From Deltaproteobacteria bacterium (GTDB lineage Bacteria > Desulfobacterota > DSM-4660 > Desulfatiglandales > HGW-15): a DNA stretch of 64,000 bases. The DNA is taken from NCBI GenBank assembly GCA_016930835.1, contig JAFGGA010000173.1:6156-70155 (forward strand), given 5' to 3'. Below are positions 24,001 through 33,000 of the stretch, piece by piece. Numbering within the stretch: position 1 is the stretch's first letter; the number at the start of each line of letters is the position of its first letter. Made by a program: the position numbers.

Positions 24001-27000
24001 ATATATCGAGTTCCCGGACTTGCTAGCTAAATCCACGTAGGGAAGATCAGGAGATGCGAAATTCGGGATTCGCGAAAGACGCGGGCGGAATCTTTATAGA
24101 TTGGGTTAAGGATCAAAACCCAGGTCAACGGGATAAACCTGAGAGGACAAATGGATCACTATTTCAACCGAATGATAAATACATCCGCCTGCTGCTCAGT
24201 CGAGTAAGGCCCGAAAAGGATGGATTGAGGGAATCCCTCCACTTTAACATAATAAGAGGTTTCAGGATTCAACTCGTTTTGCGTGGCCCAGGCCGTATAT
24301 TCCTTTCCGCCCATTTCCAGTCTTAGACCTTGCATGGGATAGTTCAAAACGGTTTTGGCCGGCAGGCTGCCGGAAGGGCCGACCGCCTGAAAGGCAATAT
24401 CCGCGCCTTCCACACCAAACATCACACCCGGCCAGTTCCCCTGTTTAGGGCGCACCTCGAACCACTGCCCGATCTGTTCGTTGCCGAGGATATCCAAATA
24501 ATATTCAGGAGGGATTGCTTTCGGTTGTTTATGGACCGCCGCCACCAGTTTGGCCCCTAATCCGGCATCGGATAAGGACATGATCCGAGCTCCTTGAATC
24601 GGAAGGCTCAACCGGTCGGAATCGATTGTATCCCCGGCGGTCTGGAGGATCATGATGGGGAAATTCGAACCCCGCTGGGCCTGGACCGTGATGGTCAGGA
24701 GTGATAATCCATAAAGGGTATCCTGGAATAATAATTCCTTATCAGATCCCAATATCCCCAACATAGCAATATTGGAATCCAGGAGGTTCTCTCTTCCCGC
24801 CTGCCATGCCATGGCCTTTAGATCATCCTTCCAGAAATGACCCTGGACATCGATGCCATAAGCCTTCATCTGGATCATCAGCTGTTGAATGGGTTCCGGG
24901 GAGGTTCCAAGGGAAGTGATCCATATGGTTTTCATGAGGTTATCCTCTTTGGTTGCTTTTGACGAGCTATCAACTTAAAGCCCGAAACTCTCATTTATTA
25001 AATACGTTCAGTCTGTCAAGAGGCGCACGGCGCAGGGCAAAGGAAAAACACCCAATATAAAAACGACAAGCTCATGGTGCTATTATGACCTTGGTCTGGC
25101 TGGGGGAAACCTGGGTACCGGCCGGGGCATTGGCATTTATCCCATTATGGCCGCTCATGGATGTCAAATGAACGCACGGCTGTCCCTCAACCTTAACCTT
25201 GGTGCCACCTATCTTAAAGGATGCCGGGCCCATGTTCATGCCTGATGCTACACCTCCGGCGACACCTGCCTCGTCCCCCATGGTTTTGGGGATCTTCGAT
25301 TTCAGGGTAACCACGGGTTTGTTGATAATCATCACCTTCATAGATGTATTCGTGGCCTGATTCAGCATGGCGGTGTTCGGGAAAGGTGTTGGTATGGGGG
25401 GTAAAGGTGGAGCGGGAACAAGGCACACATCGGGCGGCATAGCCATACAATTCCCGCCCTGTGTGGTTGATGCTGGAAACATATATTAACTCCTTTTTAT
25501 CCAAGATGAATTTTTTCGGCCTGAATCTTATAATCCTCTTCCGCTTTCACAAATGCCTTCTTTGATTTGAAATGAAATGTTTTGGCCACCAAAGTTCGTA
25601 CTCTTCCGGCCTTCATTTGACACAGTTCTTCCACTGTCTGATAGATGTTTCCTGCCTTTACGATGACAGAACCTACAATGCTTTCAAGACGGTCAACTTT
25701 ACTCAATAAACACTTTCCGGTGTACTTTGTTTCTTCGATGTGAACCTCCCCGCGCTCGGCATCAATGCCGATTTTCGGGCCCTCCATTTTCATGCCTTGT
25801 TGTTGAAGGGTAAGGTTGGAACGCAGCTTGCCAAGTGCATCCATGATTCCCAAGCAGACACCTCTTGTACCAGTCATGCCGATGGTCCGGCCGTGAAAGA
25901 TGATCTCTTTTCCTGCCGCAAAGGTAATATTGCCCTTACGGGTCACAAACTCAATGTCCCCGGCCTCCATGCTTACTTTACAGCTTCCGTTTTTCTCATC
26001 ATATTGAAAGATCAGCTCATTTTTTGGAGAAACCACCTTTAGACGCTGTTCGCCCTTTGGTCCTTCAACCTCAGCGCGTGCCCCTTTGCTTAGGGCGATC
26101 TGGTTTTCGTTATTGTCTGGCATGTTTTTCCCGGTCAAAACACCAATCACATATAGGTCTTCCGGATCTTCGCCCACGGCCAGCACTGTGTCCCCTTGCT
26201 CTACACGGTTATGGTCCGCAATGGCATTCCGCGCCCATACCGCTCCTTCCAACGGATATCCTCCAAGCAGCAGTCTCATTCGTGATCCTGAGTCCTCAGT
26301 TTCCAGGACCTTTGCAGGCCCAAGATACCTTGTCCGCGGGATCCTTTTAAATTTTTCCGCAAGATTCAACATGATGTCCCTCCGGAGCTATTGTTTTCAG
26401 TGACCTTGGTGGGGTATAAAACCCCACCCTACCATAAATTGATCATTACATAAGTATAAATTCACGTCGTATTGTTGGCCTATAAAGATCATCTTAATTC
26501 CAGTAGTCATACCCCGGTTTATCCGGGGTATCCAGGAACCAGCTTATTATATCAATCCTCCCAAAGCGGATTCTCTTTCTGGATTAGTTTAAGTCTCCAT
26601 TTACGCGGATATTTTTATTCGCTTTCCTCGACCAATTGTATTTACAGGATCTTGATATTGCTCCAAATAAACAAGTTTGATGGCCTCGTAAAAAGTCAAA
26701 AAACATCCATTTTTGTCATTCCAGCCTGCCTGTGCGTGTTCGCACGCAGACAGGTGAAGAGCGGAATCCAGTCTTTTCAAATACCTATACTGGCTCTGGA
26801 CCCCGGCCTTCACCGGGGTGACAACTTTTTCCGAGTATGTCAAGTTTGCCTATATGATATTTTTAATAAGCCCATCCGTCACCTTTTCTTTATGCCCTCA
26901 TACACATTTAACCAGATCGGAAGTGATAGCCACGTAGAGGTTGCCGTTGCGCTTATTGGTTAGAATGTAAACGTTATAATATTTTACCATATTTTCCGGA

Positions 27001-30000: not shown

Positions 30001-33000
30001 CTTTTTGAAAAATCCGCCTTTGAAAAATCGCTGTTGGACATTTTTGCATTGGTCAGATCGGCCTCTGAAAAATTAGCATCAACTGCTTCCGCTTCTACAA
30101 GAACCGTCTTGTGCAATTTTGCCTTTTCGAAGACTGTATCTTTTAAGGACGCACTCTGCAGGACGGCCTCTGACAGGTCCGCATCGGTGAAATCCGCTTC
30201 CTTCAGGCAGGCCTGTTTCAGGTTGGCCTTTTTTAGGTCTGCCCCTGAGAGGTTCGCGCCCGTGAGGTCGGATTCTTCGAGGCAGGCCTCTGTCAAAACA
30301 GCATCGGTCAGGTTCGCCTCAGGCATATCCACACCCGCCATATCCGTGTTCTTTAAATTTGCACCGGAAAGGTCCGCCCCTTTGAGCCCGGCCTTCGTTA
30401 GATTGGCGCCGGTCACAATGGCGCCCATAAGTCTTGCACCGGACAAATCCGTGCCGTTCATGGCAACGTTCTCAAGGTTCGCACGAGTCAGATCAGCCTT
30501 TTTCAGGATAGAACCGGTGAGGTTTGCATGGGTTAGATCAGCTCCGCTCAAGATACTATCCGACATGTCTGCATTGGAAAGATCTGCCCCTGCCAGGACG
30601 GCATTCGCAAAAATGGCCTTGCTGAGATTGGAATCTTTCAGGAGAACATTGGAAAAATTTGCCCCTGAAAAATTGATGCCCTTCAAGTCAAGATCCGAGA
30701 GATCGATTTCCCTGAAATCCTCGCCCTCAAAAGAGTCATTTTGTGCGGCCCGTTGTTGTACGATTTCACGCGTCAGGACTGAAGGTTTTTCTTCTTCGGC
30801 GGTCTCTTCTTCATCTGCTAATCCAAGCTGTTTTTTCAACCTGGCCTGCTGGGTTTTTGCCTCCTCGATAAATGCATCAAGATTTTCCGGGTCCACCCCC
30901 ATCTTGGGCATTATTGCCCCCATCATGCCCAACAGGGTTGTCATTTCAGGGGATTGCATTAGAGCCGGATCACTCATGCCCAGCGCGGCAAACAACTTAA
31001 GTTGTTCCTGTTTTGCCTTGTCGGTCAACGGCGGGAGGTTGTCCAGGTCCATCCCGGCCTTTGAAAAGGCCTCGGACATCTGGGCCTTTTGGTCCGCCTG
31101 CTCCATTGCCATCTTTTTTTCAGGATCTGTTTCAAACAGCCGGTCCAAGAATCTTTCCTGGTCCTTTTCGGCCTTTTCCCTGGCTTCCGGGGGGAGGCCT
31201 TCCACGTCAATACCTACCTTGGCCAGGATCGCGGATGTCTGGGCCATGATCATCTTTTTCAGGTCCTCTTTGGGGACGGGTTGTTCCGATTTGTCTTTCT
31301 CTGGTTTTTTTTCTTTAGCTGGCTTGACCTCAGGCTCTTCAGATCGTTCTTCCGGTTCCTCGGGTTCAGCAGCCCATGTCTCTTCCTCGGCTGCAATGGT
31401 TGCCAAAAACATTTCATGGCATTTTTCAAGGGGTGCGGGCTGTGCAGCAAGGGATTCGGACATGATAAAGGCATGGAGGATATCCTGAAATTCCTCTGTC
31501 TGAACCTCTGTAACCCCGCGCCAAACCAAGACGAGCTTCTCATTGTCCATGTCCGCCCAGAGGGTATCCAGTTTCATCGAGACCTCTTGAAATCCTGGGT
31601 CATTAGATGTCGGATTACTTTTTTTGTTTGTGAAACATCTGACCCTTATTTTGGGAAGATGGGAAATGAACCTCGAATGTTCTGGGTGAAGATTCTCGAA
31701 GTAGACTTCTTCATCCCCGTGAAGATACCCCTCCACCTGCATGTCCGGAGGTGCGGCATTAAAGTATGCATAGTCAAAGTCTTCTGCAAACCAGGGCCAC
31801 CTCTTTTTCAGATACTTGCCTTTGTAGGTCCCCATTTTGGAAAATCGCTGCTCCCACATCTTTCCCAGAGGGCCGAAGCCGGCCGGCGCGGGTCGATGGC
31901 GGGGGGAGCCGATTATGTCTTCAGGGTCCTCGATATTGGGAAGGAACCTCACTTTCTTACCTTCAGAAGTCACCTGTTTAGAAAAGCCTTTGCCCACGGG
32001 ATTCTTTTTATAGCCTTCTCCCCCGAAGCTATTTTCGTATCTCAGCTCCATTTTGGTGAAGGGTTCAGGGTCGGATATGGTATGAAATCCCATCGCTCCT
32101 TTCCAGCGGCGGTTGCCGAACACATGAAGTGTTTTTTCATGGGACCCCACCTGAAATTTGACCCGGCAGGCTGGAATTGGTGTTCCATTCGGGACATGGC
32201 AATGACCGGAAAGAATCAAATCCGCCTTGGGTTTGAAAAAGGCAAAGTCCGGCTCATAGCGGCAGGAACCCTGCATATCCACGTCATCGGGAAAAAATTC
32301 GTCGCCTGTTGGAAAAAGCTGTTCTTTTGACGGGGTGACGGTCCGATCGTGAACGAGGTCAAACGTCCCCTTCACGATAAGGGTCAGCGTGTGTCCCGGA
32401 AAATTGATTCTGCCCGGGTGCGGGGCAAATTGAAACGGGGTTAGATTAATGGTCTCCAAGAGGATCAGTCCTGCTCAAGTAATATTCTTTTATTGAATCA
32501 CCTTTAGTGCTTTTAAAATATCCACACTAGCTGATGTAAACGCCGAACCCGCAATATCAACCTTAGATCCTTTTATTTCGACATCCCCTGATCCGGCGTT
32601 TATAGTGATCTTTTTGCCTATAGTCGTGATATGGATCTCATCGTCATTTAAAACCGTTATCAGTGTCTTAGACTGTCCATCGCCGATTGCAACGCCGTCT
32701 TTATCCATGAGGAATAAGGTTTTTTTATTGTTCGGATCTCCAATGCTTAATTCAATTTCCTTTTTCCCTTGGATTTGTTGGCCTTGAACAACTTCATCTC
32801 TGCCGTTTGAATTAATATTAATAGAGCCATCCTTATTCATCATGATTTTTGAGCGGGCCGTTGTATCTTTACCCAAAGACGTTTGAATAAATTTTTTCCA
32901 GATCTCTCTTTCTTGGTCTTTCAAACTATCCAATTCTTTACCGATCCTTATTCGATTCGAAATATTCCATGTTGACTTCAGGGCCTTCTTGGCATTAATC

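What the first reader, a model, noticed from the sequence alone, without database searches (positions are those of the whole stretch)
25072..32459. TagAB/TagB/TagC/TagD-like tail-tip module with about 1,200 aa of pentapeptide-repeat beta-helix
Immediately after vgrG come four genes:
- a DUF2169-linker-pentapeptide fusion (979 aa)
- an 817-aa all-pentapeptide protein
- a 291-aa DUF3540-position protein
- a DUF4150 PAAR-like protein

From memory, this is the same order as tagA/B-5, tagB-5, tagC-5 and tagD-5 downstream of vgrG-5 in the Burkholderia pseudomallei-group T6SS-5. The role of the pentapeptide proteins there is unresolved. DUF2169 is otherwise known as an adaptor for DUF4150-linked effectors (Agrobacterium Tde2 system), yet here the DUF4150 protein carries no effector domain. 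The repeat proteins are therefore either cargo or structural extensions of the spike. The module is also physically split by 675 bp of junk (26373-27047).
Basis: partly seen in the sequence, partly recalled or inferred. Interest (0 to 1): 0.6.

Follow-up and report, generated by a model that had tools for sequence, protein, structure and literature searches.

The report
T6SS spike-assembly chaperone module (Tvp class III)
The four genes after vgrG are a complete, intact copy of a known type VI secretion accessory set (TagAB/TagB/TagC/TagD, now TvpAB/TvpB/TvpC/Paar1) that builds the capped spike, here in an unusually long form in an uncultured sulfate-reducer-type bacterium.

Summary
On the minus strand, directly after vgrG, lie four ORFs:
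- a DUF2169-linker-pentapeptide fusion (979 aa)
- an all-pentapeptide protein (817 aa)
- a DUF3540 protein (291 aa)
- a bare DUF4150 PAAR-like protein (136 aa)

A 675-bp non-coding gap separates genes 2 and 3. Gene order matches Burkholderia T6SS-5 (tagAB/tagB/tagC/tagD).

The function is no longer unresolved. Monlezun et al. (EMBO J 2026) showed in Serratia that this set is a "class III Tvp" chaperone system. TvpC is a VgrG-tip mimic on which the PAAR-like cap, TvpAB and TvpB pre-assemble before hand-over to VgrG. TvpAB and TvpB have never been detected as secreted there. My model of the 291-aa protein matches contractile-system spikes.

The gap is a decayed GIY-YIG gene carrying a nested dispersed repeat. 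It is lineage-specific, and the flanking genes are intact.

This is a new member of a known kind. Its variant features:
- TvpB is 2.3 times the Burkholderia size.
- VgrG carries two transmembrane-like helices.
- Repeat-protein length tracks VgrG length across about 38 loci.
- A conserved 258-aa gene with a TIR-like fold follows.

The parts
32490..35387 (-). vgrG (965 aa): gp27/gp5-type spike with a roughly 400-aa C-terminal extension
   Evidence: Phage_GPD, E 1.5e-71, and Phage_base_V, E 1.4e-13. TIGR03361, E 1.5e-133.
33135..33326 (-). Two transmembrane-like hydrophobic segments inside the VgrG C-terminal extension (residues 688-717 and 729-751)
   Evidence: Kyte-Doolittle 19-residue means of 2.12 and 2.06. 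The same hydrophobic pair sits between beta-rich segments in other long VgrGs of this module.
29520..32459 (-). tvpAB / tagAB (979 aa, TTG start). DUF2169 domain at residues 23-314 (nt 31518-32393). Acidic/lysine-rich linker at about 331-560. Pentapeptide-repeat region at about 564-979 (nt 29523-30770).
   Evidence: Pfam DUF2169, E 2.7e-93; Pentapeptide, E 1.5e-86. Linker composition. Conserved TTG start.
27048..29501 (-). tvpB / tagB (817 aa): stand-alone pentapeptide-repeat protein
   Evidence: Pentapeptide, E 6.6e-115, 21 stretches. About 600 residues in strict period-5 register.
26373..27047 (-). 675-bp insertion debris. It holds a GIY-YIG pseudogene (about 26540-26990) with at least 3 stop codons and a frameshift. 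The pseudogene is interrupted by a roughly 165-nt dispersed repeat (26677-26843).
   Evidence: Frame translations. The stitched translation hits PF01541 GIY-YIG, E 2.7e-5, 24.8 bits against a cut-off of 22.6. tblastn maps the pieces to 26990-26613 and 26605-26540. A second repeat copy lies at 60114-60250. No Rfam hit and no terminator-like site.
25497..26372 (-). tvpC / tagC (291 aa): DUF3540, an OB-fold plus beta-prism mimic of the VgrG tip. A GGAGGG Shine-Dalgarno lies 5 nt upstream.
   Evidence: Pfam DUF3540, E 4.2e-19. AlphaFold2 model. Foldseek top hits are central spikes: R2 pyocin 4s37 (E 4e-6), eCIS/PVC/AFP spikes, VgrG1 4uhv and T4 gp5. Full-length homologues end in invariant KIHLG. 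Upstream sequence.
25072..25482 (-). paar-like / tagD (136 aa): DUF4150 'PIPY' cap with no effector domain. The motif is present as PTPF at residues 31-34.
   Evidence: Tox-PAAR-like, E 4e-30. P-x-P-[YF] is present in 67 of 68 orthologues, and the PTPF variant in 11.
24159..24935 (-). Conserved 258-aa gene of unknown function at the end of the operon. It is a facultative neighbour of the module in Desulfobacterota.
   Evidence: No Pfam, NCBIfam or PDB-sequence hit. 490 homologues. It follows the PAAR-like gene directly in L002, L009, L010 and L080, and after one intervening reverse-strand gene in L001, L081 and L082. AlphaFold2 pLDDT is 92.5. The N-terminal domain is TIR/flavodoxin-like.

Best explanation
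The four genes are a complete class III Tvp module (TvpAB, TvpB, TvpC and a Paar1-type cap, the same set as TagAB/TagB/TagC/TagD). It belongs to a full T6SS-i cluster in an uncultured Desulfobacterota-type bacterium.

By homology with the Serratia system, it would work as follows:
1. TvpC forms a trimer that mimics the blunt end of the VgrG spike (OB-fold plus beta-prism, without the gp27 base).
2. The small PIPY-type PAAR-like cap first sits on this decoy.
3. The DUF2169 domain of TvpAB covers the cap's exposed hydrophobic P-x-P-[YF] patch.
4. The helical linker and pentapeptide rod of TvpAB wrap the prism.
5. The stand-alone pentapeptide protein TvpB closes the assembly like a seat belt.
6. 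The cap-TvpAB-TvpB sub-complex is handed from TvpC to the real VgrG, giving a capped spike on which the T6SS can assemble and fire.
7. The repeat proteins are cytoplasmic chaperones, not cargo.

Shown here: domain content, order, intactness, the spike-like fold of TvpC, the motif in the cap, and conservation of the module across many phyla.

Inferred by homology: the pre-complex, the hand-over and the non-secretion.

The 675-bp gap is debris of a selfish GIY-YIG gene plus a small dispersed repeat. It landed in the tvpB-tvpC spacer in this lineage and is not part of the mechanism.
For: Domain calls are all far above the curated cut-offs.

The T6SS cluster is complete on the same strand: tssJ, K, L, M, tagF, tssA, B, C, hcp, a tssE-sized ORF, tssF, G, clpV, vgrG.

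Gene order is identical to Burkholderia T6SS-5 (PMC6335564). It also matches 'synteny type C' of DUF2169 genes (PMC11883445).

Genetics, pull-downs and mutated interfaces for the Serratia orthologues are in PMC13373197. The class III definition there is DUF3540 TvpC plus a pentapeptide TvpB, present both as a fusion and as a separate protein.

The TvpC model has a confident OB-fold and beta strands. Its best PDB matches are central spikes of contractile systems, with E from 4e-6 to 7e-4.

The order vgrG-tvpAB-tvpB-tvpC-paar recurs in about 40 of 73 loci from Desulfobacterota, Acidobacteriota, Ignavibacteria, Planctomycetota, Gemmatimonadota, Nitrospirota, Gammaproteobacteria and Verrucomicrobiota.

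TvpC keeps every invariant residue of its family and has a strong ribosome-binding site.

Relatives with the same 291-aa TvpC have tvpB and tvpC 15 bp apart (L081). Others hold a different small gene at that site (L001 and L002). The gap is therefore an insertion into a working operon.
Against: - Nothing here shows protein-protein contacts, expression or secretion in this organism.
- TvpC shows no significant profile-level sequence similarity to the window's VgrG (hhalign probability 1.7%). The mimicry rests on fold only, and the monomer model is poor for residues 215-290.
- The Pfam DUF3540 match covers only the C-terminal third of the protein.
- TvpB is 2.3 times the size of the Burkholderia glumae protein (356 aa). 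Serratia-based geometry may therefore not transfer.
- Whether transcription crosses the 675-bp insertion is unknown. The promoter and terminator scans were uninformative.
Confidence: 0.8

Rival explanations
1. The pentapeptide-repeat proteins are themselves delivered. They would be either cargo effectors, as the pentapeptide T3SS effectors PipB/PipB2 are, or a physical extension that stays on the fired spike.
For: There is weak family-level similarity to PipB/PipB2 and other pentapeptide proteins, all far below the curated cut-offs. No separate effector gene is visible next to the module. Repeat-protein length tracks VgrG length, which a structural extension would also predict.
Against: In Serratia, TvpAB and TvpB have never been detected as secreted. 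They are needed for Hcp secretion itself, which fits apparatus assembly rather than cargo. Burkholderia TagA/B-5 is likewise judged 'not an effector'. Pentapeptide matches are generic repeat matches. A roughly 1,800-aa load of rigid beta-helix on a spike tip has no precedent.
Confidence: 0.08
2. The module is decaying. The 675-bp insertion uncouples tvpC, the PAAR-like gene and the 258-aa gene from the operon, so the spike pathway is non-functional.
For: The insertion is mobile-element debris inside an operon whose genes are elsewhere 6-60 bp apart. The gap RNA is predicted to be strongly structured (z = -4.3).
Against: All five flanking ORFs are full length. TvpC keeps all invariant residues and a GGAGGG ribosome-binding site. 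The PAAR-like gene keeps its motif. No terminator-like site lies in the gap. The nearest relatives carry an intact same-strand gene at the same place within otherwise intact modules, so interruptions at this site are tolerated.
Confidence: 0.1
3. This is the long-form reading, which extends rather than replaces the best explanation. The extra length of TvpAB and TvpB exists to sheathe a membrane-active, transmembrane-hairpin-bearing C-terminal extension of VgrG until firing. VgrG itself would be the effector, as in Burkholderia VgrG-5 and Serratia VgrG1.
For: The window's VgrG has two strongly hydrophobic segments. In 36 long-class loci, all 16 VgrGs with such a segment pair with TvpB of at least 636 aa and TvpAB of at least 798 aa. 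Of the 20 without one, 18 pair with TvpB of 600-622 aa. Spearman correlation of VgrG with TvpB length is 0.77, n = 38. TvpB of at least 760 aa arises on at least three branches of the DUF2169 tree. Burkholderia VgrG-5 has a predicted 46-aa transmembrane segment (residues 651-697), and an allele lacking it is avirulent. Serratia VgrG1 is linked to membrane depolarisation.
Against: The association is largely phylogenetic. The compact form is nearly one clade, and parsimony gives only 4-6 state changes. The short class pairs long VgrGs (888-1087 aa) with short TvpB (356-365 aa). No structure or multimer model of the VgrG extension could be made. Hydropathy alone does not prove membrane insertion.
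Confidence: 0.3

Closest known systems
Serratia marcescens Db10 class III Tvp system (VgrG1, TvpAB, TvpB, TvpC, Paar1; Monlezun, Earl & Coulthurst, EMBO J 2026, PMC13373197)
   Same: It has the same five components in the same order downstream of vgrG. These are a DUF2169 domain fused to pentapeptide repeats, a separate pentapeptide protein, a DUF3540 spike mimic, and a DUF4150 cap without a toxin domain. The paper reports TvpA (DUF2169) proteins in Thermodesulfobacteriota.
   Different: TvpC is longer here: 291 aa, against a Serratia protein in which residue V210 lies at the TvpC-Paar1 interface. VgrG is 965 aa with two transmembrane-like helices, against 786 aa with an all-beta-prism extension in Serratia. 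No immunity-like gene follows vgrG. An insertion lies between tvpB and tvpC. Nothing has been tested experimentally.
Burkholderia T6SS-5 vgrG-5 / tagA/B-5 / tagB-5 / tagC-5 / tagD-5 (Shalom 2007 nomenclature; PMC6335564; B. glumae group_5, PMC8747328)
   Same: The order is identical from tssB through the PAAR-like gene. The PAAR-like protein is about 130 aa with no effector domain. VgrG has a C-terminal domain containing a predicted transmembrane segment.
   Different: B. glumae TagAB is 878 aa and TagB 356 aa, against 979 and 817 aa here. In Burkholderia, tssJ-K-L-M follow tagD; here they lie upstream of tssA. Homology between the two VgrG C-terminal domains could not be tested. The host is an environmental anaerobe, not an intracellular pathogen.
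Class II Tvp (P. aeruginosa PA0096-PA0098 with Tse7; Vibrio parahaemolyticus VP1395-VP1399) and class I Tvp (Agrobacterium Tap2/Tde2)
   Same: A DUF2169 chaperone covers the hydrophobic PIPY patch of a DUF4150 domain on VgrG.
   Different: Those classes have single-domain DUF2169 proteins, no pentapeptide proteins, a short DUF6484 decoy or none, a thiolase-like TvpD (class II), and a toxin fused to the PAAR-like domain. The KAS III-like gene at 22706-23989 in the window is FabH-type and is absent from other modules, so it is not a TvpD.

Membership tests
Class III Tvp system (= TagAB/TagB/TagC/TagD; DUF2169 synteny type C) | TvpA: a DUF2169 domain protein encoded next to vgrG | tested here: met
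   PF09937, E 2.7e-93, residues 23-314. The gene starts 30 bp after the vgrG stop.
Class III Tvp system (= TagAB/TagB/TagC/TagD; DUF2169 synteny type C) | Pentapeptide-repeat domain fused to the C-terminus of the DUF2169 protein (TvpAB) | tested here: met
   PF00805, E 1.5e-86, 14 stretches. Period-5 register runs over residues 585-979.
Class III Tvp system (= TagAB/TagB/TagC/TagD; DUF2169 synteny type C) | Separate pentapeptide-repeat protein TvpB immediately downstream | tested here: met
   817-aa protein with PF00805 E 6.6e-115 and no other domain, 18 bp after tvpAB.
Class III Tvp system (= TagAB/TagB/TagC/TagD; DUF2169 synteny type C) | TvpC of the DUF3540 family with an OB-fold plus beta-prism (VgrG-tip mimic, no gp27 domain) | tested here: met
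   PF12059, E 4.2e-19, above the cut-off. The model has an OB-fold at residues 15-80 and beta strands at 90-200. Foldseek finds pyocin, eCIS, VgrG and gp5 spikes. Caveat: this is a monomer model with a low-confidence C-terminus.
Class III Tvp system (= TagAB/TagB/TagC/TagD; DUF2169 synteny type C) | DUF4150 (PIPY) PAAR-like cap, here without an effector domain, carrying the P-x-P-[YF] hydrophobic motif | tested here: met
   PF13665, E 4e-30, covers residues 13-117 of 136. The motif is PTPF at 31-34, a variant seen in 11 of 68 orthologues.
Class III Tvp system (= TagAB/TagB/TagC/TagD; DUF2169 synteny type C) | Physical pre-complex TvpC-TvpAB-TvpB-cap, with VgrG then replacing TvpC; all needed for Hcp secretion | not testable with these tools
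   This needs pull-downs, genetics or multimer modelling. Only single-chain prediction was available.
Burkholderia VgrG-5-type fusogenic spike | C-terminal domain homologous to the VgrG-5 CTD, with an internal transmembrane segment required for membrane fusion | tested here: inconclusive
   Two transmembrane-like segments sit at a similar position: residues 688-751 here against 651-697 in VgrG-5. No Burkholderia sequence was available to test homology. The homologue search with the C-terminal region returned only 2 proteins.
Class II Tvp system | DUF6484 short decoy and thiolase-like TvpD (PRK06147) | tested here: not met
   The decoy is DUF3540. The only DUF6484 signal is a sub-threshold hit inside VgrG's own OB-fold. 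The nearby KAS III-like gene is FabH-type and is not linked to the module elsewhere.

The most novel reading that the evidence does not exclude
[quoted passage not shown] In it the pentapeptide rods (TvpB 600-830 aa, against 356 aa in Burkholderia) lengthen in step with the VgrG C-terminal extension. They would serve to sheathe a transmembrane hairpin inserted in the spike's beta-prism, making VgrG itself a VgrG-5-like membrane-active effector in free-living anaerobes. In Desulfobacterota a conserved 258-aa protein with a TIR-like fold would be a fifth, uncharacterised partner.
Probability: 0.3. Interest if true: 0.55.

Novelty: new member of a known kind. Interest (0 to 1): 0.3.

Why it matters
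As filed, this is a correct recognition of a known accessory module whose mechanism was published in 2025-2026, so it adds a member rather than a concept.

Its value is comparative. The module is intact and widespread well outside Pseudomonadota. The environmental versions carry much longer pentapeptide proteins and VgrGs with transmembrane-like helices. The length covariation offers a testable reason why class III systems need pentapeptide rods at all, a point the Serratia work left open: beta-prism length was 'likely not the sole parameter'. If the rods shield a membrane-active spike, that would link Burkholderia VgrG-5 cell fusion, Serratia VgrG1 depolarisation and these environmental systems under one principle.

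Tried and rejected
- **TvpD candidate.** The KAS III-like gene at 22706-23989 was considered as a class II-type thiolase-like TvpD. Rejected: it is FabH-type by NCBIfam, and no homologue lies in any of the 80 or so related loci.
- **RNA element in the gap.** No Rfam match at E up to 0.1. There are no terminator-like sites, and promoter-like sites are not above chance.
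- **Sequence-level TvpC/VgrG homology.** hhalign was not significant.
- **Proteobacterial class III examples for size comparison.** TvpC against the plasmid collection gave no match. The DUF2169 domain gave 190 records, but the two inspected were a class II system (Caballeronia grimmiae) and a bare DUF2169-toxin pair of class I-like make-up (Burkholderia contaminans). Sizes were taken from the B. glumae paper instead.
- **Homologues of the VgrG C-terminal region.** The search hit the candidate cap and returned only 2 proteins. No useful alignment for structure prediction resulted, so the second structure job went to the 258-aa protein.
- **The 258-aa protein.** No Pfam, NCBIfam or PDB-sequence match, even with a profile.
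- **Length association as independent evidence.** A DUF2169 tree shows only 4-6 state changes, so the raw p-values overstate support.

Full report
**1. What is in the sequence**

Between 24159 and about 53635 the minus strand carries a complete T6SS-i cluster. In transcription order it holds:
- tssJ, tssK, tssL, tssM, tagF, tssA, tssB, tssC and hcp
- a 137-aa ORF in the tssE position
- tssF, tssG, clpV and vgrG (32490-35387, 965 aa)
- the four genes of the finding
- a 258-aa gene (24159-24935)

Their Pfam assignments are unambiguous:

| Coordinates | Size | Pfam result |
|---|---|---|
| 29520-32459 | 979 aa | DUF2169, E 2.7e-93, residues 23-314, plus pentapeptide repeats, E 1.5e-86 |
| 27048-29501 | 817 aa | pentapeptide repeats only, E 6.6e-115 |
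| 25497-26372 | 291 aa | DUF3540, E 4.2e-19 |
| 25072-25482 | 136 aa | Tox-PAAR-like/DUF4150, E 4e-30, covering residues 13-117 |

It is a DUF3540 member, although the Pfam profile matches only its last 100 residues.
- The 979-aa protein has a 230-residue acidic/lysine-rich linker between its two domains.
- Its TTG start is conserved: nine of the 12 orthologues checked use TTG, and all share the same N-terminus.
- A strict period-5 count gives about 950 residues of pentapeptide repeat. Reading the repeat regions off the translations gives about 1,170, so 'about 1,200' is an upper bound.
- The TvpC and 258-aa proteins are identical to NCBI entries from a 72,345-bp contig of a 'Deltaproteobacteria bacterium' MAG.

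**2. What it is**

The recalled Burkholderia gene order is correct. T6SS-5 runs tssB, tssC, hcp, tssE, tssF, tssG, clpV, vgrG-5, tagA/B-5, tagB-5, tagC-5 (DUF3540), tagD-5 (a 130-aa PAAR-like protein with no effector domain) (PMC6335564). The window shows the same 12-gene run.

The set is also 'synteny type C' of DUF2169 genes (PMC11883445). Since 2026 it is the 'class III Tvp system' (PMC13373197).

That paper changes the interpretation:
- In Serratia marcescens, TvpAB, TvpB, TvpC and Paar1 are each required for Hcp secretion through the VgrG1 pathway.
- TvpC co-purifies with TvpAB, TvpB and Paar1 but never with VgrG1. VgrG1 co-purifies with the same three but not with TvpC. The TvpC complex must form first.
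[quoted passage not shown] Interface mutations abolish function.

**3. Tests made here**

- *Fold of the 291-aa protein.* An AlphaFold2 model built on 32 homologues has a confident OB-fold (residues 15-80) and beta strands (90-200). The C-terminus is poor, as expected for a monomer model of a trimeric prism. Foldseek against the PDB returns central spikes of contractile systems as the top 18 hits. These include the R2 pyocin spike 4s37 (E 4e-6), eCIS, PVC and AFP spikes, VgrS, VgrG1 4uhv and, further down, T4 gp5. Profile comparison with the window's own VgrG is not significant, so the mimicry is at fold level only.
- *Cap motif.* The cap carries the family's proline-aromatic motif as PTPF. 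P-x-P-[YF] is present in 67 of 68 orthologues.
- *Conservation of the module.* A scan of one genome per species with the TvpC alignment returned 73 loci from at least eight phyla. My annotation of them finds vgrG-tvpAB-tvpB-tvpC-paar as the standard order in about 40. There are permutations. The PAAR-like gene precedes tvpC in some Syntrophales-like loci. In Myxococcaceae the order is tvpC-paar-tvpAB-tvpB.

Every defining sequence feature of class III is met. The complex itself cannot be tested with these tools.

**4. The gap**

On the coding strand, the 675 bp read as a small GIY-YIG gene (MVKYYNVYILTNKRNGNLYVAITSDLVK...). It has at least three stop codons and one frameshift. With the stops masked and an insert removed, the translation matches PF01541 above its cut-off.

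The insert (26677-26843) is a dispersed repeat. A 70%-identical copy lies at 60114-60250, and a 28-nt fragment lies at 41702-41729.

Elsewhere tvpB and tvpC are typically within about 60 bp of each other, or appear to overlap in my mechanical ORF calls. A relative with the same 291-aa TvpC has them 15 bp apart (L081). The two nearest relatives instead carry an intact 23S-rRNA-IVP-family gene at that spot. Another relative has a small gene that I read as endonuclease-like (DUF559-type) between tvpAB and tvpB.

So operon spacers in this lineage collect small selfish genes. The window's gap is one such insertion, now decayed.

The genes on both sides are intact:
- TvpC keeps all invariant residues and a GGAGGG ribosome-binding site.
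- No terminator-like site or Rfam family lies in the gap.
- Whether transcription reads through remains untested.

**5. How this copy differs from the studied systems**

- B. glumae TagAB is 878 aa and TagB 356 aa. Here they are 979 and 817 aa.
- TvpC is 291 aa. The Pfam model is 199 positions long, and a second group of my loci has TvpC of about 215 aa.
- Two size classes appear in my sample. A 'short' class has TvpB of 306-365 aa and TvpC of about 215 aa, like Burkholderia. A 'long' class has TvpB of 600-830 aa and TvpC of about 245-300 aa. The long class makes up 38 of the 40 complete loci.
- Within the long class, lengths covary. Spearman correlation is 0.77 for VgrG against TvpB and 0.78 for TvpAB against TvpB.
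- The window's VgrG has two strongly hydrophobic 20-30-residue segments (688-717 and 729-751) between beta-rich parts of its C-terminal extension.
- All 16 VgrGs with such a segment pair with TvpB of at least 636 aa. Of the 20 without one, 18 pair with TvpB of 600-622 aa.

This is not 36 independent observations. On a DUF2169 tree the compact form is nearly one clade, and parsimony gives 4-6 changes. The longest forms do arise on at least three branches. The short class also breaks the rule.

Burkholderia VgrG-5 has a predicted 46-aa transmembrane segment at residues 651-697, and an allele lacking it is avirulent. Serratia VgrG1 is tied to membrane depolarisation.

Long pentapeptide rods shielding a membrane-active VgrG extension is therefore a reasonable but unproven extension of the published model. 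I give it about 0.3.

**6. The gene after the cap**

- The 258-aa protein has no Pfam, NCBIfam or PDB-sequence match.
- It has 490 homologues of almost constant length.
- It directly follows the PAAR-like gene in L002, L009, L010 and L080. One reverse-strand gene intervenes in L001, L081 and L082.
- It lies within 3 kb downstream in only 9 of 51 testable loci. It is a lineage-restricted associate, not a core part of the module.
- Its AlphaFold2 model is confident (pLDDT 92.5, pTM 0.89). It has an N-terminal alpha/beta domain and a C-terminal beta-sandwich.
- The N-terminal domain resembles TIR domains (SPARTA TIR-APAZ, E 2e-5; TIR-STING; MyD88) and CheY-like receivers.
- No glutamate is invariant in that domain, so NADase activity is doubtful.

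**7. Verdict**

It is out of date on function, and its 'cargo or spike extension' alternative is not favoured.
- The finding is a new member of a known, recently characterised kind.
- The long-form features and the 258-aa gene are the only parts that go beyond the literature, and they rest on correlation and fold prediction.
- Interest is 0.3.

Noticed in passing
window 24159-24935 (minus strand): A conserved 258-aa protein sits at the end of the T6SS operon. It has no family assignment and 490 homologues of constant length. Its AlphaFold2 model is confident (pLDDT 92.5), with a TIR/flavodoxin-like N-terminal domain and a beta-sandwich C-terminal domain. It often follows the PAAR-like gene in Desulfobacterota, but is within 3 kb in only 9 of 51 loci.
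   Followed up: partly
window 26677-26843, 60114-60250, 41702-41729: A dispersed repeat of about 165 nt with internal hairpins. One copy interrupts the GIY-YIG pseudogene. A 70%-identical copy lies in an intergenic region near 60.1 kb. A 28-nt fragment lies between the tssE-position ORF and hcp.
   Followed up: partly
L001 9416-9778; L002 9324-9692; L006 3307-3702; L081 125-1774: Relatives carry other small or foreign genes wedged into spacers of the same operon. An intact 23S-rRNA-IVP-family gene lies between tvpB and tvpC (L001, L002). A small gene that I read as endonuclease-like (DUF559-type) lies between tvpAB and tvpB (L006). A 549-aa methyltransferase lies between vgrG and tvpAB (L081). 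Spacers in this operon seem to be landing sites in these genomes.
   Followed up: partly
L023 5121-5837; L025 5130-5768; L034 4578-5189; L037 5284-5913; L047 5148-5840: In modules with a compact VgrG (about 750-840 aa, no hydrophobic segment), a 200-240-aa ORF with an N-terminal transmembrane helix lies between vgrG and tvpAB. This is the position of the Vai1 immunity gene in Serratia. The window has no such gene; vgrG and tvpAB are 30 bp apart.
   Followed up: no
window 32457-32459 and orthologues in L001, L002, L003, L006, L008, L010, L011, L021, L030: The DUF2169-pentapeptide fusion gene starts with TTG in the window and in 9 of the 12 orthologues checked. This may be a conserved way of keeping its translation low relative to its partners.
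   Followed up: no
L035 and L041 (two modules each), L006, L073: Some genomes carry two class III modules in tandem, of different size classes. In L041, for example, one has TvpAB 734 / TvpB 608 aa and the next has 865 / 664 aa. This suggests several alternative capped spikes per T6SS.
   Followed up: no
window 53601-54392 and 54337-54933 (minus strand): Two ORFs (263 and 198 aa) immediately upstream of tssJ, at the head of the cluster, have no Pfam match at E up to 1e-4.
   Followed up: no
window 22706-23989 (minus strand): A FabH-type KAS III-like gene lies 170 bp downstream of the 258-aa gene on the same strand. The likely true start is at residue 65. It scores below the NCBIfam FabH cut-offs and is not found near other Tvp modules.
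   Followed up: yes
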